From: a virus | Reading direction: 5' to 3' (one strand) | Length of the DNA stretch: 25,260 nucleotides | IMG/VR virus record: IMGVR_UViG_3300023296_001674 | In this document: positions 3,108-24,368 of the stretch, one piece after another | Layout: each line of letters opens with the position of its first letter | How positions within the stretch are numbered: position 1 is the first letter of the stretch | Made by a program: the position numbers and the translations under genes | The notes under the pieces: model-generated | What the model saw: the letters and a program-made list of their open reading frames with translations, nothing else | Database searches by the model: none | Told to the model about the DNA's origin: nothing

Positions 3108-3394
3108 TTGAGCAAACGAGATCGAATACAGTGTTAACGCGGAACGAGACTGCTAGGAACACTTAAAATATACCTAATATGGGCGCGTTGTGGATGGATT
3201 TCCTTTTGTGGAATGATAAAAGCAATGGTAGGAAGCAAAGCGACCTACTAGGGAAAGCGTTATATGCTTTCCTGATAAGTTATTTTGTATGGAAGTGCCA
3301 TTAAAGCAGAACAATTGGTTTGGCGACCAAGCACCTTCGGGGCATAAAATCTGCTACTACTATACTATTTTAATCATAACTAAGTGTCACAAAA

Positions 3395-3464
3395 TATTGT
3401 ATGGTGTAGTGGTAACACGCTGCCTTTATCGGCGGAGCCGTGGGTTCGAGTCCTACTATGATAT
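3395..3464 (+). tRNA. tRNA-like gene: 7/7 acceptor stem (two G-U), D-arm gtgt/acac, GGTTCGAGTCC T-arm, but only a 6-nt anticodon loop and no encoded CCA
   Basis: Manual cloverleaf; acceptor tattgta pairs with tatgata. Confidence 0.35.
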
Positions 3465-3822
3465 TTGGATTACGTTCAGTGTGCACACCGAACGCCACAA
3501 ATTATCTGTTATTATCGCGATAGTGATAGATAATGTTGGGTCACTTAGTTATGATTAAAGTTTTTAGGGTGTTCGTCTAGTGGATTAGGACGCGCCGCCT
3601 TGGGTAGTTGGAGTTCGATTCTCCTTAGCAACGGTTACGTAAATCCGCACGGTGAGACATTGGTTCGAATCCAATACATGTTAAAATAACGATTTCACAT
3701 GAGATGTATAGTTTTAATGGATAAATCAGGCATGAGCCTTGTGCGGCAAGATAGTGGGTTCGATTCCCCTTGCGTTGAATGTGAAATGATGCTATATTGG
3801 TTTTTTAATATAGGAGATAATA

Positions 3823-6089: not shown

Positions 6090-6854
6090 TTAATCATTGT
6101 GTAGTTGCGTTTTTTCATATTCATCGACATCAAGTTTTAATTGTTTATATGTGATAGATGATGTATTACGTTTTTTTACATTATCTTTCTGAAGCATTAT
6201 TTCACAATTTAATGGATGTGTAATATAATATGGATCATACTTGTTAACAATTGATTCATTTATAGATATTTTATGATCCCTCGCTACACCGTTTGAATTT
6301 TTCTTTGGGACATACCAACCATGTTTTTTTATTAAATCTAAATTGAGTAGATTGGGATAATCATTGACATCAAATTTGAAATAATATGGACGTTTCGTAG
6401 TTTGAAGTTCTTTTGCTGTTCTACCATATTGTTCAACGCAGCATTGACATTTTGATATATACCGATCTTTGGCGGTGAAAAGTGTAATACAGGTGGAGCA
6501 AGTTCTAAACCATACCATGGAATATTCACCATCGATATATTTTTTTAGTTTATCCCATCTTTTTGGATAATGACCAATATCTTTTATGATTTTGATATGA
6601 CTTTTACTCATTCGTTCTTTAGTTTCATTGCTATGTTTGCGACGGCTATTATTATATTTGGCGGCACAAGATTGATTACAATATTTCTTTTTTATAAGTG
6701 CTTCATCGTATGACCATGATTTGCCGCATTGGTTGCATGTTTTTGGATTTTTATTATATTCGGCAATGCGATGGTTTTTTTGATTTATTTGCGTTTTTCG
6801 TGAAGCTATAAATCCTAATTTACCAGCTTCAGATTTGGACAATTTACATGTCAT
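6090..6854 (-). CDS. HNH-family homing endonuclease (254 aa), one of four paralogs; N-terminal CxxC / C-N-Q-SCAAKYNNSRRK zinc-binding-like motif, C-terminal RDHxxS...HPxNC core
   Basis: SD aagga upstream of the ATG at 6854; conserved C-terminal block shared with ORFs 8344, 11473 and 14042. Confidence 0.75.
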   Translation of the reverse strand: MTCKLSKSEAGKLGFIASRKTQINQKNHRIAEYNKNPKTCNQCGKSWSYDEALIKKKYCNQSCAAKYNNSRRKHSNETKERMSKSHIKIIKDIGHYPKRWDKLKKYIDGEYSMVWFRTCSTCITLFTAKDRYISKCQCCVEQYGRTAKELQTTKRPYYFKFDVNDYPNLLNLDLIKKHGWYVPKKNSNGVARDHKISINESIVNKYDPYYITHPLNCEIMLQKDNVKKRNTSSITYKQLKLDVDEYEKTQLHND

Positions 6855-7694: not shown

Positions 7695-7770
7695 GTAGGT
7701 GTAGTGTTAACGGTTAGCACGTCAGACTGTGACTCTGAAAGTGCCGGTTCAAATCCGGTCATTTACCCCA
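7695..7770 (+). tRNA. tRNA-His, anticodon GUG
   Basis: Anticodon stem tcaga/tctga, loop ctgtgac, T-arm gccggTTCAAATccggt. Confidence 0.8.
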
Positions 7771-8286: not shown

Positions 8287-8362
8287 TTCAGATGACCAAG
8301 CAAGTGAACGGGACCGCCTGTTAAGCGGATATTGCAGGGAGCGTTACCCTGATCTGGAGCCA
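8287..8362 (+). tRNA. tRNA-Asn, anticodon GUU, non-canonical T-loop agcgtta
   Basis: Acceptor ttcagat/atctgga, loop ctgttaa, T-stem caggg/ccctg. Confidence 0.7.
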
Positions 8363-8991
8363 ATAACTTTATATTTTTTGTCCCATTCATTTATTCGATG
8401 GTATAAATCATATAATGATAAACTTGAATGACGATTTTTAGATGAATTTTCTGGCTGTGGCATTATCTTGCAGTTCGCTGGATGTGATATATGATTTGGG
8501 TCTATTTTGTTTACAAATCCATCATGTACACTATACATGTGATCTCTTGTTAATCCGTTTTTATTTTTGGTACTATGATACATGCCCTGTTGATGTATCA
8601 TTATAAAATCAAATTCTTCTGGAAATGTTTGAAATGAAAATATAAATTTACATTGTTCTTTATATTTTATCTTCTCAATCATGTATTCTTGTGGTGTCAC
8701 CCTCATGGCATTTGTGCAAGTAACTGCACAACTTCTTCCGCAATAATATTCACGAGTTCCGGTTATAGGGCTAAATTTATTATTACATGTTGGATTTTTA
8801 CACTCGATTAGTCGTTTTTGATATTTTGTTAAATTTTTTACCGATATTTCTTTTTTGGTGAATATGCAACTACATGTAATATGTGATATTTTACCGTTGC
8901 TTTTGCCATGCATACGTGAATGACCATTCAATGCCATTAAGGATTTAAATTGATTATCGCATATATTACATGTATAAATATCTTTAGACAT
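8344..8991 (-). CDS. HNH-family homing endonuclease paralog (216 aa from the MSKDIYTCNIC start)
   Basis: The ORF track extends further, but GGAGG SD precedes the ATG at 8991; same conserved C-terminal core. Confidence 0.7.
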   Translation of the reverse strand: MSKDIYTCNICDNQFKSLMALNGHSRMHGKSNGKISHITCSCIFTKKEISVKNLTKYQKRLIECKNPTCNNKFSPITGTREYYCGRSCAVTCTNAMRVTPQEYMIEKIKYKEQCKFIFSFQTFPEEFDFIMIHQQGMYHSTKNKNGLTRDHMYSVHDGFVNKIDPNHISHPANCKIMPQPENSSKNRHSSLSLYDLYHRINEWDKKYKVIGSRSG

Positions 8992-9080
8992 TATCAACCT
9001 CCATTGGTTGTTATAGTTTAGAAGATATGGGGAATTCCAGTTCTCTATATCTTCGTTAGTATTTATCAATAACATATTAT

Positions 9081-9166
9081 TCGGATATAGGAGAATTGGT
9101 AGACCCAGAAGATTGTTAATCTTCCGCAGCAATGCATTCCAGGTTCGAGTCCTGGTATCCGAGCCA
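9081..9166 (+). tRNA. type-II-like tRNA (86 nt, Leu-like D-arm GAATTGGTAGA, variable-arm hairpin) whose anticodon loop reads GUU
   Basis: Acceptor tcggata/tatccga perfect, anticodon stem gaaga/tcttc, loop ttgttaa, T-arm ccaggTTCGAGTcctgg. Confidence 0.65.
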
Positions 9167-9167
9167 A

Positions 9168-9240
9168 TAACACCGTAGCGTAGAAAATAGTTACTTCGTT
9201 TCACTCACGACTGGAATGGGTTCGATTCCCATGCCCTGCG
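9168..9240 (+). tRNA. tRNA-like gene with D, anticodon and T arms but no matching 5' acceptor strand; no CCA
   Basis: T-arm atgggTTCGATTcccat; its 3' strand gccctgc pairs only with the downstream fragment at 9244. Confidence 0.35.
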
Positions 9241-9243
9241 TAA

Positions 9244-9272
9244 GCAGGGTTTAGTGTAATGGTAGCACAGTA
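9244..9272 (+). pseudogene. tRNA 5' fragment (acceptor gcagggt plus D-arm), complementary to the 3' end of the upstream tRNA-like gene
   Basis: gcagggt TT AGTG TAATGGTA GCAC, then no anticodon or T arm. Confidence 0.35.
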
Positions 9273-9849: not shown

Positions 9850-9923
9850 AGGGGTATCGTATAGTGGTAATACGGTGGATTCCAAACTCACAGACCGGGG
9901 TTCGATCCCTCGTTCCCCTGCCA
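9850..9923 (+). tRNA. tRNA-Trp, anticodon CCA
   Basis: D-stem gtat/atac, loop ttccaaa, T-arm cggggTTCGATCcctcg. Confidence 0.75.
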
Positions 9924-11228: not shown

Positions 11229-11498
11229 ATGGATAATAGTACATTAATAGCGTTAGGAAGTTTGTTGTTTGCCATGATTGGTGGATTTTGGGGTGTCATA
11301 ACATACATCCTTGGAATCATCAAGGTGGAAAACGTTGAACGTCGTGGTGTCCAAGAAAAATTATATATGCGCGATGATGTAGCCAAAGATGTAATGAACG
11401 AAAGTTTAACAGAAGTAAAAAGTACCATCCGTGATACGAATGATAGACTCATACGTGTAGAAACAATATTATATGAAAGAACTGATAGAACAAAATAA
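11229..11498 (+). CDS. small membrane protein (89 aa), one N-terminal TM helix
   Basis: Hydrophobic segment LIALGSLLFAMIGGFWGVITYILGII. Confidence 0.45.
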   Translation: MDNSTLIALGSLLFAMIGGFWGVITYILGIIKVENVERRGVQEKLYMRDDVAKDVMNESLTEVKSTIRDTNDRLIRVETILYERTDRTK

Positions 11499-12108
11499 AA
11501 TATGGTTTTTAAGCAAAACGGTAATACGTTGTATAAATAGTTATATGGTTGATTTAAGAAAGAGTTTGCAAACACCAAAAGTTTGCTGTATTGAATGTAA
11601 AACAATATTTAGAACTAATCATTTTGTTAGACACTCGAAGAAGCGATGTATTGAGTGGAAAAAGAAAAACGGCATGATCCCAAAAGGGAAGCGTGGCGGT
11701 TGGAATAAAGGATTAACGAAAATGACTAGTTCGTTGGTCAAAAAAGGAACCGATACTTATCGTCGCCGTTATGAAAATGGTGAATATACACGACGCACAC
11801 AAACCGATGATATAAAGAAACAATATTGGCAAGATTGTAAATTTAAATTCAATGTTTATAATTATCCTGAAATATTTGACTTAAATTTACTCGATAAATT
11901 TGGGTGGTATCATCCTGTAGAAAATCCAAGTGGCGTAAGTAGAGATCATATTATTTCTGTATCATATGGATGGAAAAATGGTATAGATTCGAATATTATT
12001 AATCATATAGCCAATTGTAAATTGATGATTCATTTAGAAAATAACAAAAAAAATAATCGATCTGATTTATTATTAGAAGAATTATTACAAAAAATACACT
12101 CTATGTAG
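11473..12108 (+). CDS. HNH-family homing endonuclease paralog (211 aa)
   Basis: SGVSRDHIISVSYGWKNGIDSNIINHIANCKLM core; N-terminal CxxC pairs. Confidence 0.7.
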   Translation: MKELIEQNKIWFLSKTVIRCINSYMVDLRKSLQTPKVCCIECKTIFRTNHFVRHSKKRCIEWKKKNGMIPKGKRGGWNKGLTKMTSSLVKKGTDTYRRRYENGEYTRRTQTDDIKKQYWQDCKFKFNVYNYPEIFDLNLLDKFGWYHPVENPSGVSRDHIISVSYGWKNGIDSNIINHIANCKLMIHLENNKKNNRSDLLLEELLQKIHSM

Positions 12109-12851: not shown

Positions 12852-12938
12852 AGAAGTACTTTGTATTGGTGAACTCAGCAGTCTCCAAAACTGTGTCGCA
12901 TTTGTGACTGGTAGGTTCGAATCCTACTACTTCTGCCA
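12852..12938 (+). tRNA. type-II-like tRNA (87 nt, variable-arm hairpin) whose anticodon loop reads CCA (Trp-like)
   Basis: Acceptor agaagta/tacttct perfect, anticodon stem gcagt/actgt, loop ctccaaa, T-arm gtaggTTCGAATcctac. Confidence 0.65.
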
Positions 12939-13441: not shown

Positions 13442-13509
13442 CCTGTAGGTCGTAGGTTCGAATCCTGCTCCTCGCGCCAATTATGCGGGGATAGCTCAGT
13501 GGTAGAGCA
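13442..13509 (+). tRNA. split/permuted-looking tRNA locus: 3' portion (13442-13479, anticodon 3' stem through encoded CCA), then attat, then 5' portion (13485-13509, acceptor plus D-arm GCGGGGATAGCTCAGTGGTAGAGCA)
   Basis: The 3' acceptor tcctcgc pairs 7/7 with the downstream gcgggga; anticodon 3' stem cctgt pairs with the downstream actgg. Confidence 0.4.
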
Positions 13510-13562
13510 ACTGGCAATTTTACTGGTTCCAATTATTATAGCAATATTTTATTAAATAGGTC

Positions 13563-13765: not shown

Positions 13766-13843
13766 TGACTAGTAGCTCAGTGGTTTAGAGCGGGGAGTTC
13801 TAAACTCTCGACAGCGTTGGTTCAAATCCAACCTGGTCAACCA
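13766..13843 (+). tRNA. tRNA with anticodon CUA (amber-suppressor-like); U1-A72 acceptor
   Basis: D-arm GCTCAGTGGTTTAGAGC, anticodon stem gggag/ctctc, loop ttctaaa, T-arm gttggTTCAAATccaac, CCA encoded. Confidence 0.6.
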
Positions 13844-13850
13844 ATACTAA

Positions 13851-14022
13851 GCGGGTATCGTATAATGGTATTATCGCAGCCTTCCATGTGATATGTTTAA
13901 CATATCTCAGGTTGAGCCATTTATTGGCTCCTTGAAGGTCGAGGGTTCAGACCCCATCCGGTTTAAGCCCGGTAGACCAACTTAAGCTGATGACGGGAGT
14001 TCGATTCTCCCTACCCGCTCCA
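13851..14022 (+). tRNA. tRNA-Gly(UCC)-like gene interrupted by a structured insertion of about 98 nt in the anticodon loop (about 13887-13984)
   Basis: 5' part gcgggta TC GTATAATGGTATTAT... and 3' part ...GACGGGAGTTCGATTCTCCCTACCCGCTCCA match the Gly tRNAs at 9685 and 12508; the 7/7 acceptor pairing exists only across the insertion. Confidence 0.5.
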
Positions 14023-14041
14023 ATATTTGATAAATAGTTAT

Positions 14042-14818
14042 ATGAAATGTAAACAATGTAAAATATCATTTACCCCTATCCCACAAGCAAAAAAAGGTAT
14101 ATTTTGTTCGCACGATTGTCATAATGTATACCAGCGCGTAAATACTCGTGAGCAATACTTAAAAAATCCCAAACGGTGTATTTTTTGTGATGATATAATA
14201 TCATATAGAGAAAATATAAAAGTGGCGAAGTTTTGCAATAGGTCTTGCGGGGCAAAATATAATAATAAAAGACGTACAGAATGCGGATACACCCCAAGTC
14301 ATAAAAAATGGTCTAGTGGTAAAATATCTGCTAAAATGTCATCAAAAATGCGCCGTGCGGATATCAAATCAAGTGTCGTGTTTGGTGATTTTACTATAAT
14401 AACATTTGCTATATGCAATATTACGAATAAACCATATGTTCTACAAACACCGCATGGTGGTATAAAGCAAATATCACCATATATTAAATCATCTAAACAG
14501 ATATATTATGAGCAAGCCAAATTTCGATTTAATGTATATGACTATCCAGATATATTTGATATAACACTTTTAGAAAAATATGGATGGTATACATGTCCCG
14601 GCAAGAAACGAAAAAATCAAAAAAAGAATATAAATGGTGTAAGTAGAGATCATATAATATCTATCAATGATGGATTTAAGAATGGGTATGATCCATATAT
14701 TTTAGCACATCCTGCTAATTGTCGATTGATTAAACAAGTGGATAATGTTAAAAAATTAGATAAATCTAATATGTCATATGACGAGTTATTGATTAACATA
14801 AAACAATGGAATGGATAG
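14042..14818 (+). CDS. HNH-family homing endonuclease paralog (MKCKQCK start; the ORF track's TTG at 14027 overlaps the tRNA), TAG stop
   Basis: CNRSCGAKYNNKRR motif and NGVSRDHIISINDGFKNGYDPYILAHPANCRL core. Confidence 0.7.
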   Translation: MKCKQCKISFTPIPQAKKGIFCSHDCHNVYQRVNTREQYLKNPKRCIFCDDIISYRENIKVAKFCNRSCGAKYNNKRRTECGYTPSHKKWSSGKISAKMSSKMRRADIKSSVVFGDFTIITFAICNITNKPYVLQTPHGGIKQISPYIKSSKQIYYEQAKFRFNVYDYPDIFDITLLEKYGWYTCPGKKRKNQKKNINGVSRDHIISINDGFKNGYDPYILAHPANCRLIKQVDNVKKLDKSNMSYDELLINIKQWNG

Positions 14819-16799: not shown

Positions 16800-17129
16800 A
16801 TGGATAAAGCTGCGCTAAAAACACTTTCCGATACTCTTAATCGGATATGGGGAATCCCTGAACCAAGGGTCTATTATCCGAATAAACATTTCGAAAAACC
16901 TGAACCAGTTGAACAGACAATGTTCTCAGTGTTCATTCTTGACGCTGGTCCTAAACGGATTAACGTCATTAAAGAAATCAGATCAATCTTAGGATTGACC
17001 CTGAAAGAATCAAAGGATTTTGTTGATAATATAGACAAGAGCCTTGTTCAAGAAGACTTAGAAAAATGGGATGCAGATGCATTAGCCGAAACATTATCAA
17101 ATGTTGGAGCAACTGTTGAAGTTTCTTAA
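16800..17129 (+). CDS. ribosomal protein bL12 (L7/L12) C-terminal-domain homolog fused to a novel N-terminal segment (109 aa)
   Basis: FSVFILDAGPKRINVIKEIRSILGLTLKESKDFVDN...DADALAETLSNVGATVEV matches the bL12 CTD pattern. Confidence 0.6.
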   Translation: MDKAALKTLSDTLNRIWGIPEPRVYYPNKHFEKPEPVEQTMFSVFILDAGPKRINVIKEIRSILGLTLKESKDFVDNIDKSLVQEDLEKWDADALAETLSNVGATVEVS

Positions 17130-17241: not shown

Positions 17242-17325
17242 GCGCGTAGCCGGTATGTTGGTACTACCACTGGTCTTCCAAACCAGCGCGAAAGCATTGG
17301 GGTTTGATTCCCCCTACCCGCTCCA
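17242..17325 (+). tRNA. tRNA, anticodon UCC (Gly-like), with an 11-nt extended variable region (84 nt)
   Basis: Acceptor gcgcgta/tacccgc 6/7, D-stem ggta/tacc, anticodon stem ctggt/accag, loop cttccaa, T-arm ggggTTTGATTcccc. Confidence 0.6.
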
Positions 17326-20328: not shown

Positions 20329-20436
20329 TTCCAAGTAGCTCAGATGGTAGAGCGTCTGACTGTGGAACAGATGAGCCTAAAGCTTTGAAGTTCAAATTTA
20401 ATCAGAATGTCGGCGGTTCGATCCCGTCCTTGGAAG
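20329..20436 (+). tRNA. tRNA-His-like (anticodon GUG, second copy) with a structured insertion of about 40 nt in the variable position; no CCA
   Basis: Acceptor ttccaag/cttggaa perfect, D-arm GCTCAGATGGTAGAGC, loop ctgtgga, T-arm ggcggTTCGATCccgtc. Confidence 0.5.
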
Positions 20437-20575: not shown

Positions 20576-20667
20576 GCCTCGGTAGCTCAGAAAAGCAACG
20601 TAAGTTGTAGTGTAGTAGCAGGTGACTGAACCTCACCGTGTCGGTAGTTCGAATCTATCCTGGGGCA
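20576..20667 (+). tRNA. tRNA-like gene, 92 nt: canonical 3' two-thirds (anticodon stem ggtga/tcacc, loop ctgaacc = GAA) with about 17 extra nt between D and anticodon arms; no CCA
   Basis: Acceptor gcctcgg/ctggggc, T-arm ggtagTTCGAATctatc. Confidence 0.45.
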
Positions 20668-23768: not shown

Positions 23769-24368
23769 GTGCGGAAGCATCTACATACACGAACACTGTT
23801 GACACACTACGGAGGTGTCTTCATCGATAATAATGTCGAAGAAGTTATAGTTCCGTCGTTATGGGAACAGCAGACATTTATTGATAAAGCAGGAAGTGAA
23901 ATTGTAAATCAGATGTGGGCATTTGAAGATAAGAAAAATCGCCCCGTATGTTTGATACCAGAAGTTACTGGTGTTATACAAGAAATGTGGCGCGATGATT
24001 GGAGTAAATCCAAACCAAAGCCATATTCTATTTTTTATGTGAATCGTTGTTATCGTTATGAACGACCACAGAAGGGTAGATATAGAGAATTCACACAAAT
24101 CGGATTAGAAATTCTTGGTGATACATCAGGGAATGATTACGATATGGCAATTAATTTATTGCAAAAGTGTCTCGATTGTTTTACTATAGATTATAAACTT
24201 ACAGAAACGGTACAACGCGGTTTGGCGTATTATGTTGATGATGGGTTTGAAGTCGAATGTGAGAAGTTGGGCGCACAGAAGCAAATTGCTGGTGGTGGTC
24301 GATACAATGAAGGTATTGGTTGGGCTATCGGCGTTGATAGATTAATATTGGGGATTGATGATGACTAG
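23769..24368 (+). CDS. minimal class II aaRS catalytic core of the HisRS/HisZ type (motif 1 region FEDKKNRPVCLIPEVT, motif 2 YRYERPQKGRYREFTQ, motif 3 GGGRYNEG), lacking the insertion and anticodon-binding domains
   Basis: Motif recall against E. coli HisS; an upstream ATG at 23741 with SD aaggag opens a different frame (MLRGTRL...), suggesting a frameshift at about 23790. Confidence 0.65.
   Translation: MRKHLHTRTLLTHYGGVFIDNNVEEVIVPSLWEQQTFIDKAGSEIVNQMWAFEDKKNRPVCLIPEVTGVIQEMWRDDWSKSKPKPYSIFYVNRCYRYERPQKGRYREFTQIGLEILGDTSGNDYDMAINLLQKCLDCFTIDYKLTETVQRGLAYYVDDGFEVECEKLGAQKQIAGGGRYNEGIGWAIGVDRLILGIDDD

What the first reader, a model, noticed from the sequence alone, without database searches (positions are those of the whole stretch)
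9081..9166. Type II (long-variable-arm) tRNA bodies carrying anticodons of type I amino acids
Gene 9081-9166 has a Leu-like D-arm (GGAGAATTGGTAGACCC) and a variable-arm hairpin, yet its anticodon loop ttGTTaa, closed by gaaga/tcttc, reads GUU (Asn). Gene 12852-12938 likewise has a variable-arm hairpin (gtcgc...gtgac) and loop ctCCAaa (Trp). Gene 20329-20436 reads GUG (His) with a 40-nt structured insert, and 17242-17325 reads UCC (Gly) with an 11-nt variable loop. Identity elements for Asn, Trp, His and Gly do not include a long variable arm, so these are either mischarging-prone tRNAs, decoys, or non-tRNA functional RNAs.
Basis: seen in the sequence. Interest (0 to 1): 0.65.

Follow-up and report, generated by a model that had tools for sequence, protein, structure and literature searches.

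The report
Long-armed phage tRNAs for Asn, Trp, Gly
A giant phage's tRNA cluster holds asparagine, tryptophan and glycine tRNAs built with the extra arm normally reserved for leucine, serine and tyrosine tRNAs; they belong to families common in phages, and their charging signals match their anticodons, so they look like working tRNAs of an unusual shape rather than mischarging decoys.

Summary
9081-9166 is an 86-nt tRNA(GUU) with a Leu-like D arm and a 14-nt variable region that forms a 3-bp hairpin. 12852-12938 is an 87-nt tRNA(CCA) with a 5-bp variable arm. 17242-17325 is an 84-nt tRNA(UCC) with an 8/4 acceptor/T layout and a 12-nt variable region.

The fourth, 20329-20436, is not a type II body. 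Its 35-nt insert sits in the anticodon loop of an Asn-type class I tRNA, and the His reading is not supported.

The mischarging/decoy interpretation is not favoured. In each gene the acceptor end carries the bacterial identity set of its anticodon:
- Asn: U1-A72, G73.
- Trp: A1-U72, G2-C71, G73.
- Gly: G1-C72, C2-G71, G3-C70, U73.

Each also lacks what LeuRS and TyrRS (A73) or SerRS (G1-C72 with G2-C71) need.

All three belong to families found in many viral contigs: 35 distinct long Asn, 65 long Trp and 44 long Gly(UCC) sequences. The Asn type also occurs in cultured Pseudomonas, Brevundimonas and Acinetobacter phages. The Asn family shows strong compensatory change in the four main stems. 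Its variable region always folds into a hairpin, mostly GNRA-capped.

Most likely these are cognately charged phage tRNAs with remodelled bodies. Charging itself was not tested.

The parts
9081..9166 (+). 86-nt tRNA-Asn(GUU) with a class II architecture. It has U1-A72, C2-G71, G73 and an encoded CCA, and a Leu-like D arm (9090-9106).
   Evidence: ARAGORN. Rfam 48.6 bits. It scores 83.4 bits against the long-Asn family model R1.
9115..9117 (+). Anticodon GTT in the loop TTGTTAA, closed by GAAGA/TCTTC.
9125..9138 (+). 14-nt variable region CGCAGCAATGCATT, with the hairpin GCA/TGC capped by GCAA.
   Evidence: Direct reading. The same C-[2-4 bp]-GNRA-...-ATT pattern recurs across the family.
12852..12938 (+). 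87-nt tRNA-Trp(CCA) with a 16-nt variable arm (12895-12910, 5-bp stem). It has A1-U72, G2-C71, G73, an encoded CCA and a weak D stem.
   Evidence: Its closest relative is L144:4474-4555.
17242..17325 (+). 84-nt tRNA-Gly(UCC) in the 8/4 configuration. It has a 6-bp D stem with a tetraloop, a 12-nt variable region (17287-17298), G1-C72, C2-G71, G3-C70, U73 and CCA.
   Evidence: Relatives are L217, L179, L197 and L169.
20329..20436 (+). Asn-type class I tRNA (U1-A72, G73, variable loop ATGTC) interrupted in the anticodon loop. There is no encoded CCA.
   Evidence: Rfam 54.1 bits with a 38-nt insertion in the loop. With the anticodon masked, the body best matches the class I tRNA-Asn L052:4655.
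20364..20398 (+). 35-nt insert between CTGT and TAA (positions 35/36 of a CUGUUAA loop).
   Evidence: Direct reading. A homologous gene, L228:7811-7930 (minus strand), carries a 46-nt insert at the same place.
9850..9923 (+). Ordinary 74-nt tRNA-Trp(CCA) in the same array, for comparison.
13851..14022 (+). Class I tRNA-Gly(UCC) with an insert of about 100 nt in the anticodon loop. It is the interrupted counterpart of 17242.
   Evidence: Rfam 38.9 bits with a 100-nt insertion. The fold z-score is -4.47.

Best explanation
These are working phage tRNAs whose bodies have been remodelled while their amino-acid identity follows the anticodon.

9081-9166 is the phage's tRNA-Asn. It is transcribed with the rest of the + strand tRNA cluster and matured at an encoded CCA end. 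It is then charged through the bacterial Asn signals: the GUU anticodon and G73 for AsnRS, or a non-discriminating AspRS followed by the amidotransferase that reads U1-A72. It reads AAU and AAC, which make up 6% of the codons in the neighbouring genes.

Its D arm and variable arm come from a tRNA-Leu-like ancestor. They are kept because they form one folding unit and do not interfere with Asn charging.

12852 (Trp, on a Ser-like body) and 17242 (Gly, on an 8/4 body) follow the same logic. 17242 may be partly degenerate.

Shown here: the structures, the identity nucleotides, family membership and covariation. Inferred: expression, charging and decoding.
For: Identity sets are taken from Giege and Eriani 2023 (PMC9976931).
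- 9081 has GUU, G73 and U1-A72 (Asn). [quoted passage not shown]
- 12852 has CCA, G73, A1-U72 and G2-C71 (Trp).
- 17242 has C35, C36, U73, G1-C72, C2-G71 and G3-C70 (Gly).

Family evidence for the long Asn type:
- There are 35 distinct long Asn tRNAs from viral contigs, a further metagenome contig and alphaproteobacterial genome records.
- In the 33 aligned sequences, G73 is present in 33/33 and U1-A72 in 31/33.
- The variable region forms a hairpin in 33/33, against a shuffle mean of 10.6 (maximum 16). 27 of the 33 loops are GNRA.
- On 41 sequences, 96.8% of cells pair and the covariation score is 0.857, against 0.181 for shuffles and 0.11-0.14 for slid controls.
- 12 long Asn tRNAs retrieved without any Asn criterion have G73 in 12/12 and U1-A72 in 11/12.

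Across the fetched viral loci, the 1-72 pair and the discriminator follow the anticodon, not the body class:
- Long Asn: U-A in 43/47.
- Long Trp: U72 in 61/65.
- tRNA-Ser: G-C in 76/86.

Other support:
- In 10 of 12 arrays with at least 15 tRNAs, the long form is the only Asn tRNA.
- Asn is 6.0% of the codons in the window's ORFs.
- The type is annotated tRNA-Asn in cultured phages.
Against: No aminoacylation, expression or modification data exist here.

12852 keeps several Ser-like features: a 5-bp variable arm, G73, G2-C71 and A3-U70. Its nearest non-Trp relatives are tRNA-Ser, so some serylation cannot be excluded.

17242 has a C.C mismatch in the acceptor stem and U56 in the T loop.

In phage phiPsa374 the deposited annotation notes the homologous gene as 'tRNA-Pseudo-GTT'.

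Several conserved positions in the families were fixed by my search patterns: the D loop, anticodon loop and T loop throughout, G73 for Trp, and G71, C72 and U73 for Gly.

The host and its synthetases are unknown.
Confidence: 0.66

Rival explanations
1. These are missense (mischarging) tRNAs. SerRS or LeuRS ignores the anticodon and charges the class II body, so Ser or Leu is inserted at Asn, Trp or Gly codons, as proposed for nematode nev-tRNAs and bacterial allo-tRNAs.
For: SerRS and E. coli LeuRS do not read the anticodon. 12852 has a Ser-like body, G73 and G2-C71. 9081 has a Leu-like core. 17242 has the 8/4 allo-tRNA layout.
Against: None of the three has A73, which LeuRS and TyrRS need. 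9081 lacks both G1-C72 and G2-C71, and 17242 lacks G2-C71 and G73. Across the families, the 1-72 pair has shifted systematically away from the Ser and Leu state to the state of the anticodon's own amino acid. Mistranslating 6% of codons would be very costly. The long Asn tRNA is the sole Asn tRNA in most large arrays.
Confidence: 0.1
2. These RNAs do not translate. They are tRNA-shaped decoys or sponges for host tRNA-cleaving defence nucleases or toxins, or regulators, and are not used by the ribosome.
For: Phage tRNAs are known to counter tRNA-targeting defences (abstracts, e.g. PMC11555353). The array also holds tRNA-like modules that resemble Y-RNA-like RNAs. Canonical Trp and Gly(GCC) tRNAs coexist in the window.
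Against: A decoy would not need an intact acceptor-end identity set, an encoded CCA and a canonical 7-nt anticodon loop, all conserved together. Nor would it need to be the only Asn tRNA in one-per-amino-acid arrays.
Confidence: 0.12
3. These are decaying pseudogenes: duplicated tRNA genes in a redundant array that picked up insertions in the variable region and are drifting.
For: The window has many duplicate and defective tRNA-like genes. 17242 has U56 and an acceptor mismatch, and 12852 has a weak D stem. The phiPsa374 annotation carries a 'Pseudo' note.
Against: 9081 has perfect acceptor, anticodon and T stems (its D stem has one A.C mismatch). Compensatory changes run through the main stems of the Asn family across very different phages, and the variable-arm hairpin is kept in 33/33. 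The weak D arm of 12852 is shared by its relative L144, with a G-C to C-G swap.
Confidence: 0.07

Closest known systems
Nematode nev-tRNAs and eukaryotic noncanonical V-arm tRNAs (Hamashima et al. 2012, PMC3333845)
   Same: They are class II-shaped tRNAs whose anticodons (Gly CCC, Ile UAU) belong to amino acids normally served by class I tRNAs.
   Different: nev-tRNAs keep leucine identity and are leucylated in vitro. Here the discriminator and the first acceptor pairs match the anticodon's own amino acid. These are also phage or bacterial-element genes, not eukaryotic ones.
allo-tRNAs and (8/4) tRNA-Ser / tRNA-His of bacteria and alphaproteobacterial phages (Mukai et al. 2017, PMC5389517)
   Same: 17242 shares the 8-bp acceptor / 4-bp T stem, the long D stem with a tetraloop, and an extra arm. 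Some of the known examples also lie in phage tRNA clusters.
   Different: allo-tRNAs are inferred to be Ser (or Ala) acceptors, have long V arms and often have 6-bp anticodon stems. 17242 has a short 2-bp V hairpin, a 5-bp anticodon stem and a full Gly acceptor set. 9081 and 12852 are ordinary 7/5 tRNAs.
Canonical bacterial class II tRNAs (Leu, Ser, Tyr)
   Same: The core architecture is shared. 9081 has the D arm and V arm of a phage tRNA-Leu (L194:6186). 12852 has the anticodon stem, T arm and G73 of phage tRNA-Ser.
   Different: The anticodon, discriminator and 1-72 pair are those of Asn and Trp.
tRNA remoulding / alloacceptor anticodon shifts (known from mitochondria and eukaryotic gene families, e.g. 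PMC3923123)
   Same: A duplicated tRNA gene takes a new identity through changes in the anticodon and a few identity nucleotides.
   Different: Here the shift crosses the class I / class II structural divide, and the product is conserved as a widespread phage family.
Phage tRNA variants that escape host tRNA nucleases (e.g. PMC11555353)
   Same: They are phage-encoded isoacceptors that differ structurally from the host's tRNAs.
   Different: The known cases differ by a few anticodon-loop or stem bases. No role in defence evasion has been shown for an added variable arm.

Membership tests
Bacterial tRNA-Asn (for 9081) | Anticodon G34 U35 U36. | tested here: met
   The loop is TTGTTAA.
Bacterial tRNA-Asn (for 9081) | Discriminator G73, and U1-A72 as read by the amidotransferase. 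| tested here: met
   TCGGATA...TATCCGA G CCA. The rule is from PMC9976931.
Bacterial tRNA-Asn (for 9081) | Class I shape, with a 4-5 nt variable loop. | tested here: not met
   The variable region is 14 nt and forms a hairpin.
Bacterial tRNA-Asn (for 9081) | Accepts asparagine, or Asp followed by amidation. | not testable with these tools
   This needs aminoacylation assays.
The family features are U1-A72, G73, a Leu-like D arm and a GNRA-capped V hairpin. | tested here: met
   83.4 bits, within the family range of 69-97 bits. 9081 was one of the 33 training sequences, so the score is partly circular. Its independent resemblance to L008, L038 and L031 is shown.
tRNA-Leu (bacterial identity) | Discriminator A73. 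| tested here: not met
   The three genes have G73 (9081, 12852) or U73 (17242). A73 is present in 77/78 long and 39/39 short phage Leu tRNAs.
tRNA-Ser (bacterial identity) | G1-C72 and G2-C71, together with a long V arm. | tested here: not met
   9081 has U1-A72 and C2-G71. 12852 has A1-U72, with G2-C71 present. 17242 has C2-G71 and U73. Phage tRNA-Ser have G-C at 1-72 in 76/86 and at 2-71 in 82/86.
tRNA-Tyr (bacterial identity) | A73, G1-C72, and anticodon G34 U35 A36. | tested here: not met
   9081 shares only G34 and U35, and has G73 and U1-A72.
Bacterial tRNA-Trp (for 12852) | CCA anticodon, G73, A1-U72 and G2-C71. | tested here: met
   AGAAGTA...TACTTCT G CCA, with loop CTCCAAA. G3-C70 and G4-C69 are replaced by A-U pairs, so two minor elements are not met.
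Bacterial tRNA-Gly (for 17242) | C35, C36, U73, G1-C72, C2-G71 and G3-C70. | tested here: met
   GCGCGTAG...CTACCCGC T CCA, with loop CTTCCAA. The 3' acceptor strand is identical to that of the window's ordinary Gly genes.
allo-tRNA / (8/4) tRNAs (for 17242) | A 12-bp acceptor branch split 8/4, and a long D stem with a tetraloop. | tested here: met
   The minimum-energy fold gives 8 bp (one C.C mismatch) plus 4 bp, and a 6-bp D stem with one bulge and a UGGU loop.
allo-tRNA / (8/4) tRNAs (for 17242) | A long V arm and an extended anticodon stem, with a G73 or U73 discriminator taken to indicate Ser identity. | tested here: inconclusive
   The V hairpin has only 2 bp and the anticodon stem 5 bp. 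U73 is present, but together with the Gly acceptor pairs.
tRNA-His (for 20329) | G-1 paired with C73, or A73 in the alphaproteobacterial type. | tested here: not met
   The base before position 1 is T and the discriminator is G. The window's ordinary tRNA-His, 7695-7770, has C73.
Archaeal/eukaryal-type tRNA intron (for the 20329 insert) | Position 37/38 with a bulge-helix-bulge motif. | tested here: not met
   The position shared with L228 is 35/36. The fold shows no 3-4-3 bulge-helix-bulge (read by eye).

The most novel reading that the evidence does not exclude
Phage and mobile-element tRNA clusters may carry a systematic 'shape-swapped' tRNA set: class II-shaped Asn, Trp, Gly(UCC), Lys, Ile and Cys tRNAs, and class I-shaped Leu tRNAs. 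These would keep cognate charging while differing in body from the host's tRNAs. The purpose would be to escape host tRNA-cleaving defence nucleases, or to be handled selectively by phage-encoded enzymes. In this phage the ordinary-shaped Asn and Gly(UCC) genes are interrupted by inserts, which would leave the long-armed versions as the ready-made copies.
Probability: 0.2. Interest if true: 0.85.

Novelty: new variant of a known kind. Interest (0 to 1): 0.58.

Why it matters
Textbook bacterial tRNA classification reserves the long variable arm for Leu, Ser, Tyr and Sec. Here the arm appears on Asn, Trp and Gly tRNAs whose charging signals still match their anticodons. The same designs recur in many viral contigs and in cultured phages, where one deposited annotation notes such a gene as a pseudogene.

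If they are charged as predicted, three things follow:
- AsnRS, TrpRS and GlyRS tolerate a class II core.
- tRNA identity can be moved across the structural class boundary by changing only the anticodon, position 73 and the first acceptor pairs.
- Annotation pipelines under-call a real part of the phage tRNA repertoire.

The cultured phages that carry the Asn type (phiPsa374, Kabachok, Acibel004) make this directly testable.

Tried and rejected
- A near-identity DNA search of the whole window against 50,697 phage records found nothing.
- The 408-aa neighbouring gene has no close relatives in IMG/VR, and only 22-30% identical proteins in the large protein database, all but the exact match on short contigs. 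Synteny-based comparison was therefore impossible.
- The first viral pattern, with an exact AATTGGTAGA...TTGTTAA, found only class I tRNA-Asn. This shows that the D loop alone is not diagnostic of class II.
- Walking about 9 kb upstream and about 8 kb downstream found no further tRNA genes and no AsnRS.
- The MAFFT alignment misplaces the variable-arm columns. As a result the model-based pair count shows only 72% pairing for that helix. The arm was analysed instead by anchoring on each hairpin.
- A single model for the long Trp family was abandoned because the family is heterogeneous, with at least three D-arm types.
- Two Trp-type queries, 12852 itself and one common long-Trp type, found no cultured-phage relative.
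- Rfam gave no significant family for the inserts of 13851 or 20329. No bulge-helix-bulge motif was seen.
- TAG recoding, as an explanation for the CUA tRNA, is not supported: TAG ends 5 of 28 ORFs.
- Seven literature searches found no description of class II-shaped Asn, Trp or Gly tRNAs in phages. The library covers open-access papers only.

Full report
**Context**

The window is the tRNA cluster of a very large phage.
- ARAGORN finds 27 tRNA genes, all on the + strand, between 3394 and 25210. Rfam adds several more.
- The genes between them are small phage-type ORFs. They include thymidine kinase, a fatty-acid desaturase, a dual-specificity phosphatase, a HisRS-like fragment and a DUF7275 protein whose best matches are in large myoviruses.
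- The same proteins occur on contigs of up to 570,750 bp.
- There is no near-identical DNA among 50,697 phage records.
- About 9 kb upstream and about 8 kb downstream hold no further tRNA genes. The downstream flank encodes a 604-aa AspRS.

**Checking the observation**

Gene 9081-9166 is called tRNA-Asn(gtt), 86 nt, with default settings. Its ARAGORN score of 117.2 is one of the best in the window. Rfam tRNA scores it 48.6 bits and places the surplus bases in the variable region.

Read directly, the gene is TCGGATA TA GGAGAATTGGTAGACCC A GAAGA TTGTTAA TCTTC CGCAGCAATGCATT CCAGG TTCGAGT CCTGG TATCCGA G CCA. The variable region is 14 nt and forms a 3-bp hairpin with a GCAA loop.

Genes 12852-12938 and 17242-17325 appear only with relaxed ARAGORN settings. 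In Rfam they match tRNA-Sec below that family's threshold, at 36.9 and 38.4 bits. Both nonetheless have complete cloverleaves.
- 12852 has perfect acceptor and T arms and a 5-bp variable-arm hairpin.
- 17242 folds by minimum free energy into an 8-bp acceptor / 4-bp T-stem cloverleaf. It has a 6-bp D stem, a tetraloop and a GC-GAAA-GC variable hairpin.

Gene 20329-20436 is a good tRNA (54.1 bits), but its surplus is inside the anticodon loop. TCTGA/TCAGA encloses 42 nt, and the variable loop is a normal ATGTC.

**Identity elements**

Rules are taken from Giege and Eriani 2023.
- Bacterial Asn identity is the anticodon plus G73, and U1-A72 is read by the amidotransferase. 9081 has all of these.
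- Bacterial Trp identity is CCA, G73, A1-U72 and G2-C71, plus some minor pairs. 12852 has CCA, G73, A1-U72 and G2-C71.
- Gly identity is C35, C36, U73, G1-C72, C2-G71 and G3-C70. 17242 has all of these. Its 3' acceptor strand is identical to that of the window's ordinary Gly genes.

The three genes also lack what the class II synthetases need.
- E. coli LeuRS needs A73 and ignores both the anticodon and the variable arm.
- TyrRS needs A73 and G1-C72.
- Bacterial tRNA-Ser conserves G1-C72 and G2-C71.

None of the three genes has A73. 9081 and 17242 carry C2-G71.

**Relatives of 9081**

A pattern scan for a Leu-like D loop, a GTT anticodon loop and a long variable region found the type in several collections:
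- a metagenomic tRNA array (L008);
- a Bradyrhizobium tRNA array that is also listed as a prophage, and two alphaproteobacterial MAGs;
- 36 viral contigs.

Together these give 35 distinct 81-88-nt tRNA-Asn(GUU) sequences.

Among the 33 aligned sequences:
- G73 is present in 33/33, U1-A72 in 31/33 and an encoded CCA in 25/33.
- The variable region is 11-15 nt.
- It folds into a hairpin of at least 2 bp in 33/33. Shuffled sequences give a mean of 10.6 and a maximum of 16.
- The loop is GAAA in 17 and GCAA in 8.

A covariance model built from these sequences scores 9081 at 83.4 bits, inside the family range. On the 41-sequence alignment, 96.8% of cells pair. The covariation score is 0.857, against 0.181 for shuffles (0 of 500 as high) and 0.11-0.14 for slid partners.

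My patterns fixed the D loop, anticodon loop and T loop, so those positions prove nothing. However, 12 long Asn tRNAs that came in with the Trp and Gly scans, with no Asn criterion, have G73 in 12/12 and U1-A72 in 11/12.

With the anticodon masked, 9081's nearest neighbours are long Asn tRNAs. The next is a class II tRNA-Leu (L194:6186) with the same D arm and variable arm but G1-C72 and A73. This points to a Leu-like body re-identified as Asn.

In 10 of 12 arrays with at least 15 tRNAs, the long form is the only Asn tRNA.

Cultured phages carry the type, annotated tRNA-Asn: Pseudomonas phiPsa374-like phages, Brevundimonas jumbo phages and Acinetobacter Acibel004.

**Relatives of 12852 and 17242**

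A scan for a CCA loop, a long variable region and G73-CCA returned 114 viral contigs with 65 distinct 82-92-nt tRNA-Trp sequences.
- Their variable regions are 11-19 nt. 51 of 65 form hairpins of at least 3 bp, against a shuffle mean of 13.
- U72 is present in 61 or 62 of 65, depending on the parse: G.U in 33, A-U in 28-29 and G-C in 3-4.
- L144:4474-4555 is the closest relative of 12852. It shares the odd D arm, with a G-C to C-G swap in the 2-bp stem.
- The best non-Trp neighbours of 12852 are tRNA-Ser with the same anticodon stem, T arm and G73, so the body looks Ser-derived.
- In the same loci, tRNA-Ser have G1-C72 in 76/86 and G2-C71 in 82/86. The long Trp tRNAs have therefore moved away from Ser identity at exactly these positions.

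A scan for a UCC loop, a long variable region and GC-U73-CCA returned 59 contigs with 44 distinct 81-91-nt tRNA-Gly(UCC) sequences.
- L197 has a variable region identical to that of 17242 (CGCGAAAGCATT). Those of L179, L168 and L217 differ from it by one or two bases.
- Several have the same 8/4 layout, including one from a 543-kb viral contig (L169). That contig also has a 92-nt Asn, a 90-nt Lys and an 88-nt Cys tRNA.
- For Gly, positions 71-73 were fixed by the pattern. Two long Gly tRNAs from the Trp scan also have G1-C72 and U73.

**The fourth gene**

With the insert removed and the anticodon masked, the body of 20329 best matches a class I tRNA-Asn (L052:4655). The two share the anticodon stem TCTGA/TCAGA and the variable loop ATGTC. 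20329 has U1-A72 and G73, with neither G-1 nor C73, so it is not His-like. The window's ordinary tRNA-His has C73.

A 490-kb viral contig (L228) has a homologous gene with compensatory changes in the acceptor and T stems. It carries a different 46-nt insert at the same place, CTGT|insert|TAA. Read straight through, that copy gives GTA, not GTG. The framing common to both is therefore a CUGUUAA (Asn) loop interrupted between positions 35 and 36.

How the insert would be removed, or whether it is removed at all, is unknown. It is too short for a group I intron, shows no bulge-helix-bulge motif and matches no Rfam family.

The window also has a class I tRNA-Gly(UCC) with a structured insert of about 100 nt in its anticodon loop.

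**Interpretation**

The simplest reading is that 9081, 12852 and probably 17242 are functional tRNAs charged with the amino acid of their anticodon. Their bodies derive from class II or 8/4 tRNAs. The extra arm is retained as part of the folding core and is tolerated by synthetases that read the anticodon and the acceptor end.

Asn is 6.0% of codons in the neighbouring genes. Systematic mistranslation would therefore be costly, and a working tRNA-Asn useful. The nearby phage AspRS and three tRNA-Asp genes make an Asp-then-amidation route conceivable, but that is inference only.

The rivals cannot be excluded without biochemistry:
- Ser or Leu mischarging is most plausible for 12852.
- A decoy role is possible.
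- Decay is most plausible for 17242, which has U56 and a C.C mismatch.

**Comparison with the known, and novelty**

The closest described things are:
- nematode nev-tRNAs, which are class II bodies with Gly or Ile anticodons that are leucylated;
- allo-tRNAs and the (8/4) tRNA-Ser and tRNA-His of alphaproteobacterial phages.

The present families differ in that their identity nucleotides agree with the anticodon.

Seven full-text searches found no description of class II-shaped Asn, Trp or Gly tRNAs in phages. The genes do sit in public records under plain tRNA names.

I rate this a new variant of a known kind. It is of moderate to good interest and is testable in cultured phages.

Noticed in passing
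window 13851-14022 (+): A class I tRNA-Gly(UCC) carries an insert of about 100 nt in its anticodon loop. The insert folds into three hairpins (z = -4.47) and matches no Rfam family. Together with 20329, this means the ordinary-shaped Asn and Gly(UCC) genes are both interrupted, while long-armed versions of the same anticodons are intact.
   Followed up: partly
L228 7811-7930 (-), from a 490-kb viral contig: An Asn-type tRNA gene homologous to 20329 has a different 46-nt insert at the same site (CTGT|...|TAA). The insert contains a T-arm-like hairpin (CAG TTCGATT CTG). Both genes end G-CAA rather than G-CCA. This may be a short tRNA intervening sequence of an unknown kind.
   Followed up: partly
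window 20576-20667 (+): A tRNA (Rfam 36.7 bits) has a 26-nt insertion in the D loop and the anticodon loop CTGAACC.
   Followed up: no
window 9210-9271 (+) and 13445-13511 (+): These are tRNA-like modules in permuted order: a T arm, then an acceptor-like hairpin closed by a loop (GCCCTGC-GTAA-GCAGGGT), then a D arm. This is the layout of bacterial Y-RNA-like YrlA. The Rfam YrlA scores are 15.4 bits (E 0.79) and 32.4 bits, both below threshold. An ORF about 2 kb upstream of the window start has a faint TROVE (Ro60) hit (L004 7832-8281).
   Followed up: partly
window 13766-13843 (+): This is a tRNA with a CUA anticodon (an amber suppressor; ARAGORN calls it 'Pyl'), U1-A72 and A73. TAG still ends 5 of 28 ORFs in the window, so there is no sign of TAG recoding here.
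   Followed up: partly
window 3394-3465 (+): A tRNA-like gene (Rfam 46.9 bits) for which ARAGORN reports a two-base anticodon. By eye the anticodon loop has 6 nt.
   Followed up: no
window 6090-6854 (-), 8344-9000 (-), 11473-12108 (+), 14027-14818 (+): Four paralogous ORFs (phrog_23051, function unknown) are scattered among the tRNA genes. They have weak endonuclease VII and HNH hits and C2H2-like zinc-finger motifs, so they may be homing-type endonucleases.
   Followed up: partly
viral loci L009, L020, L021, L030-L032, L037, L042, L043 and others: The same phage arrays often hold class I-shaped tRNA-Leu: 74-79 nt, a 5-nt variable loop and A73 retained. There are 39 distinct sequences. This is the reverse swap of the long-armed Asn.
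   Followed up: partly
viral loci L009, L019, L022, L030, L032, L169 and others: Long-armed tRNA-Lys (86-91 nt) mostly have U73 (11 of 16) instead of the A73 seen in short Lys tRNAs (39 of 43). This is the one isotype in which the discriminator does not follow the anticodon. Long Ile and Cys tRNAs also occur.
   Followed up: no
window 16800-17129, 23769-24368; L003 16365-18179; L004 8867-9382: The phage encodes translation-related proteins around the array: an L7/L12-like protein, a 199-aa HisRS-like fragment, a 604-aa AspRS and an IF3 homologue.
   Followed up: no
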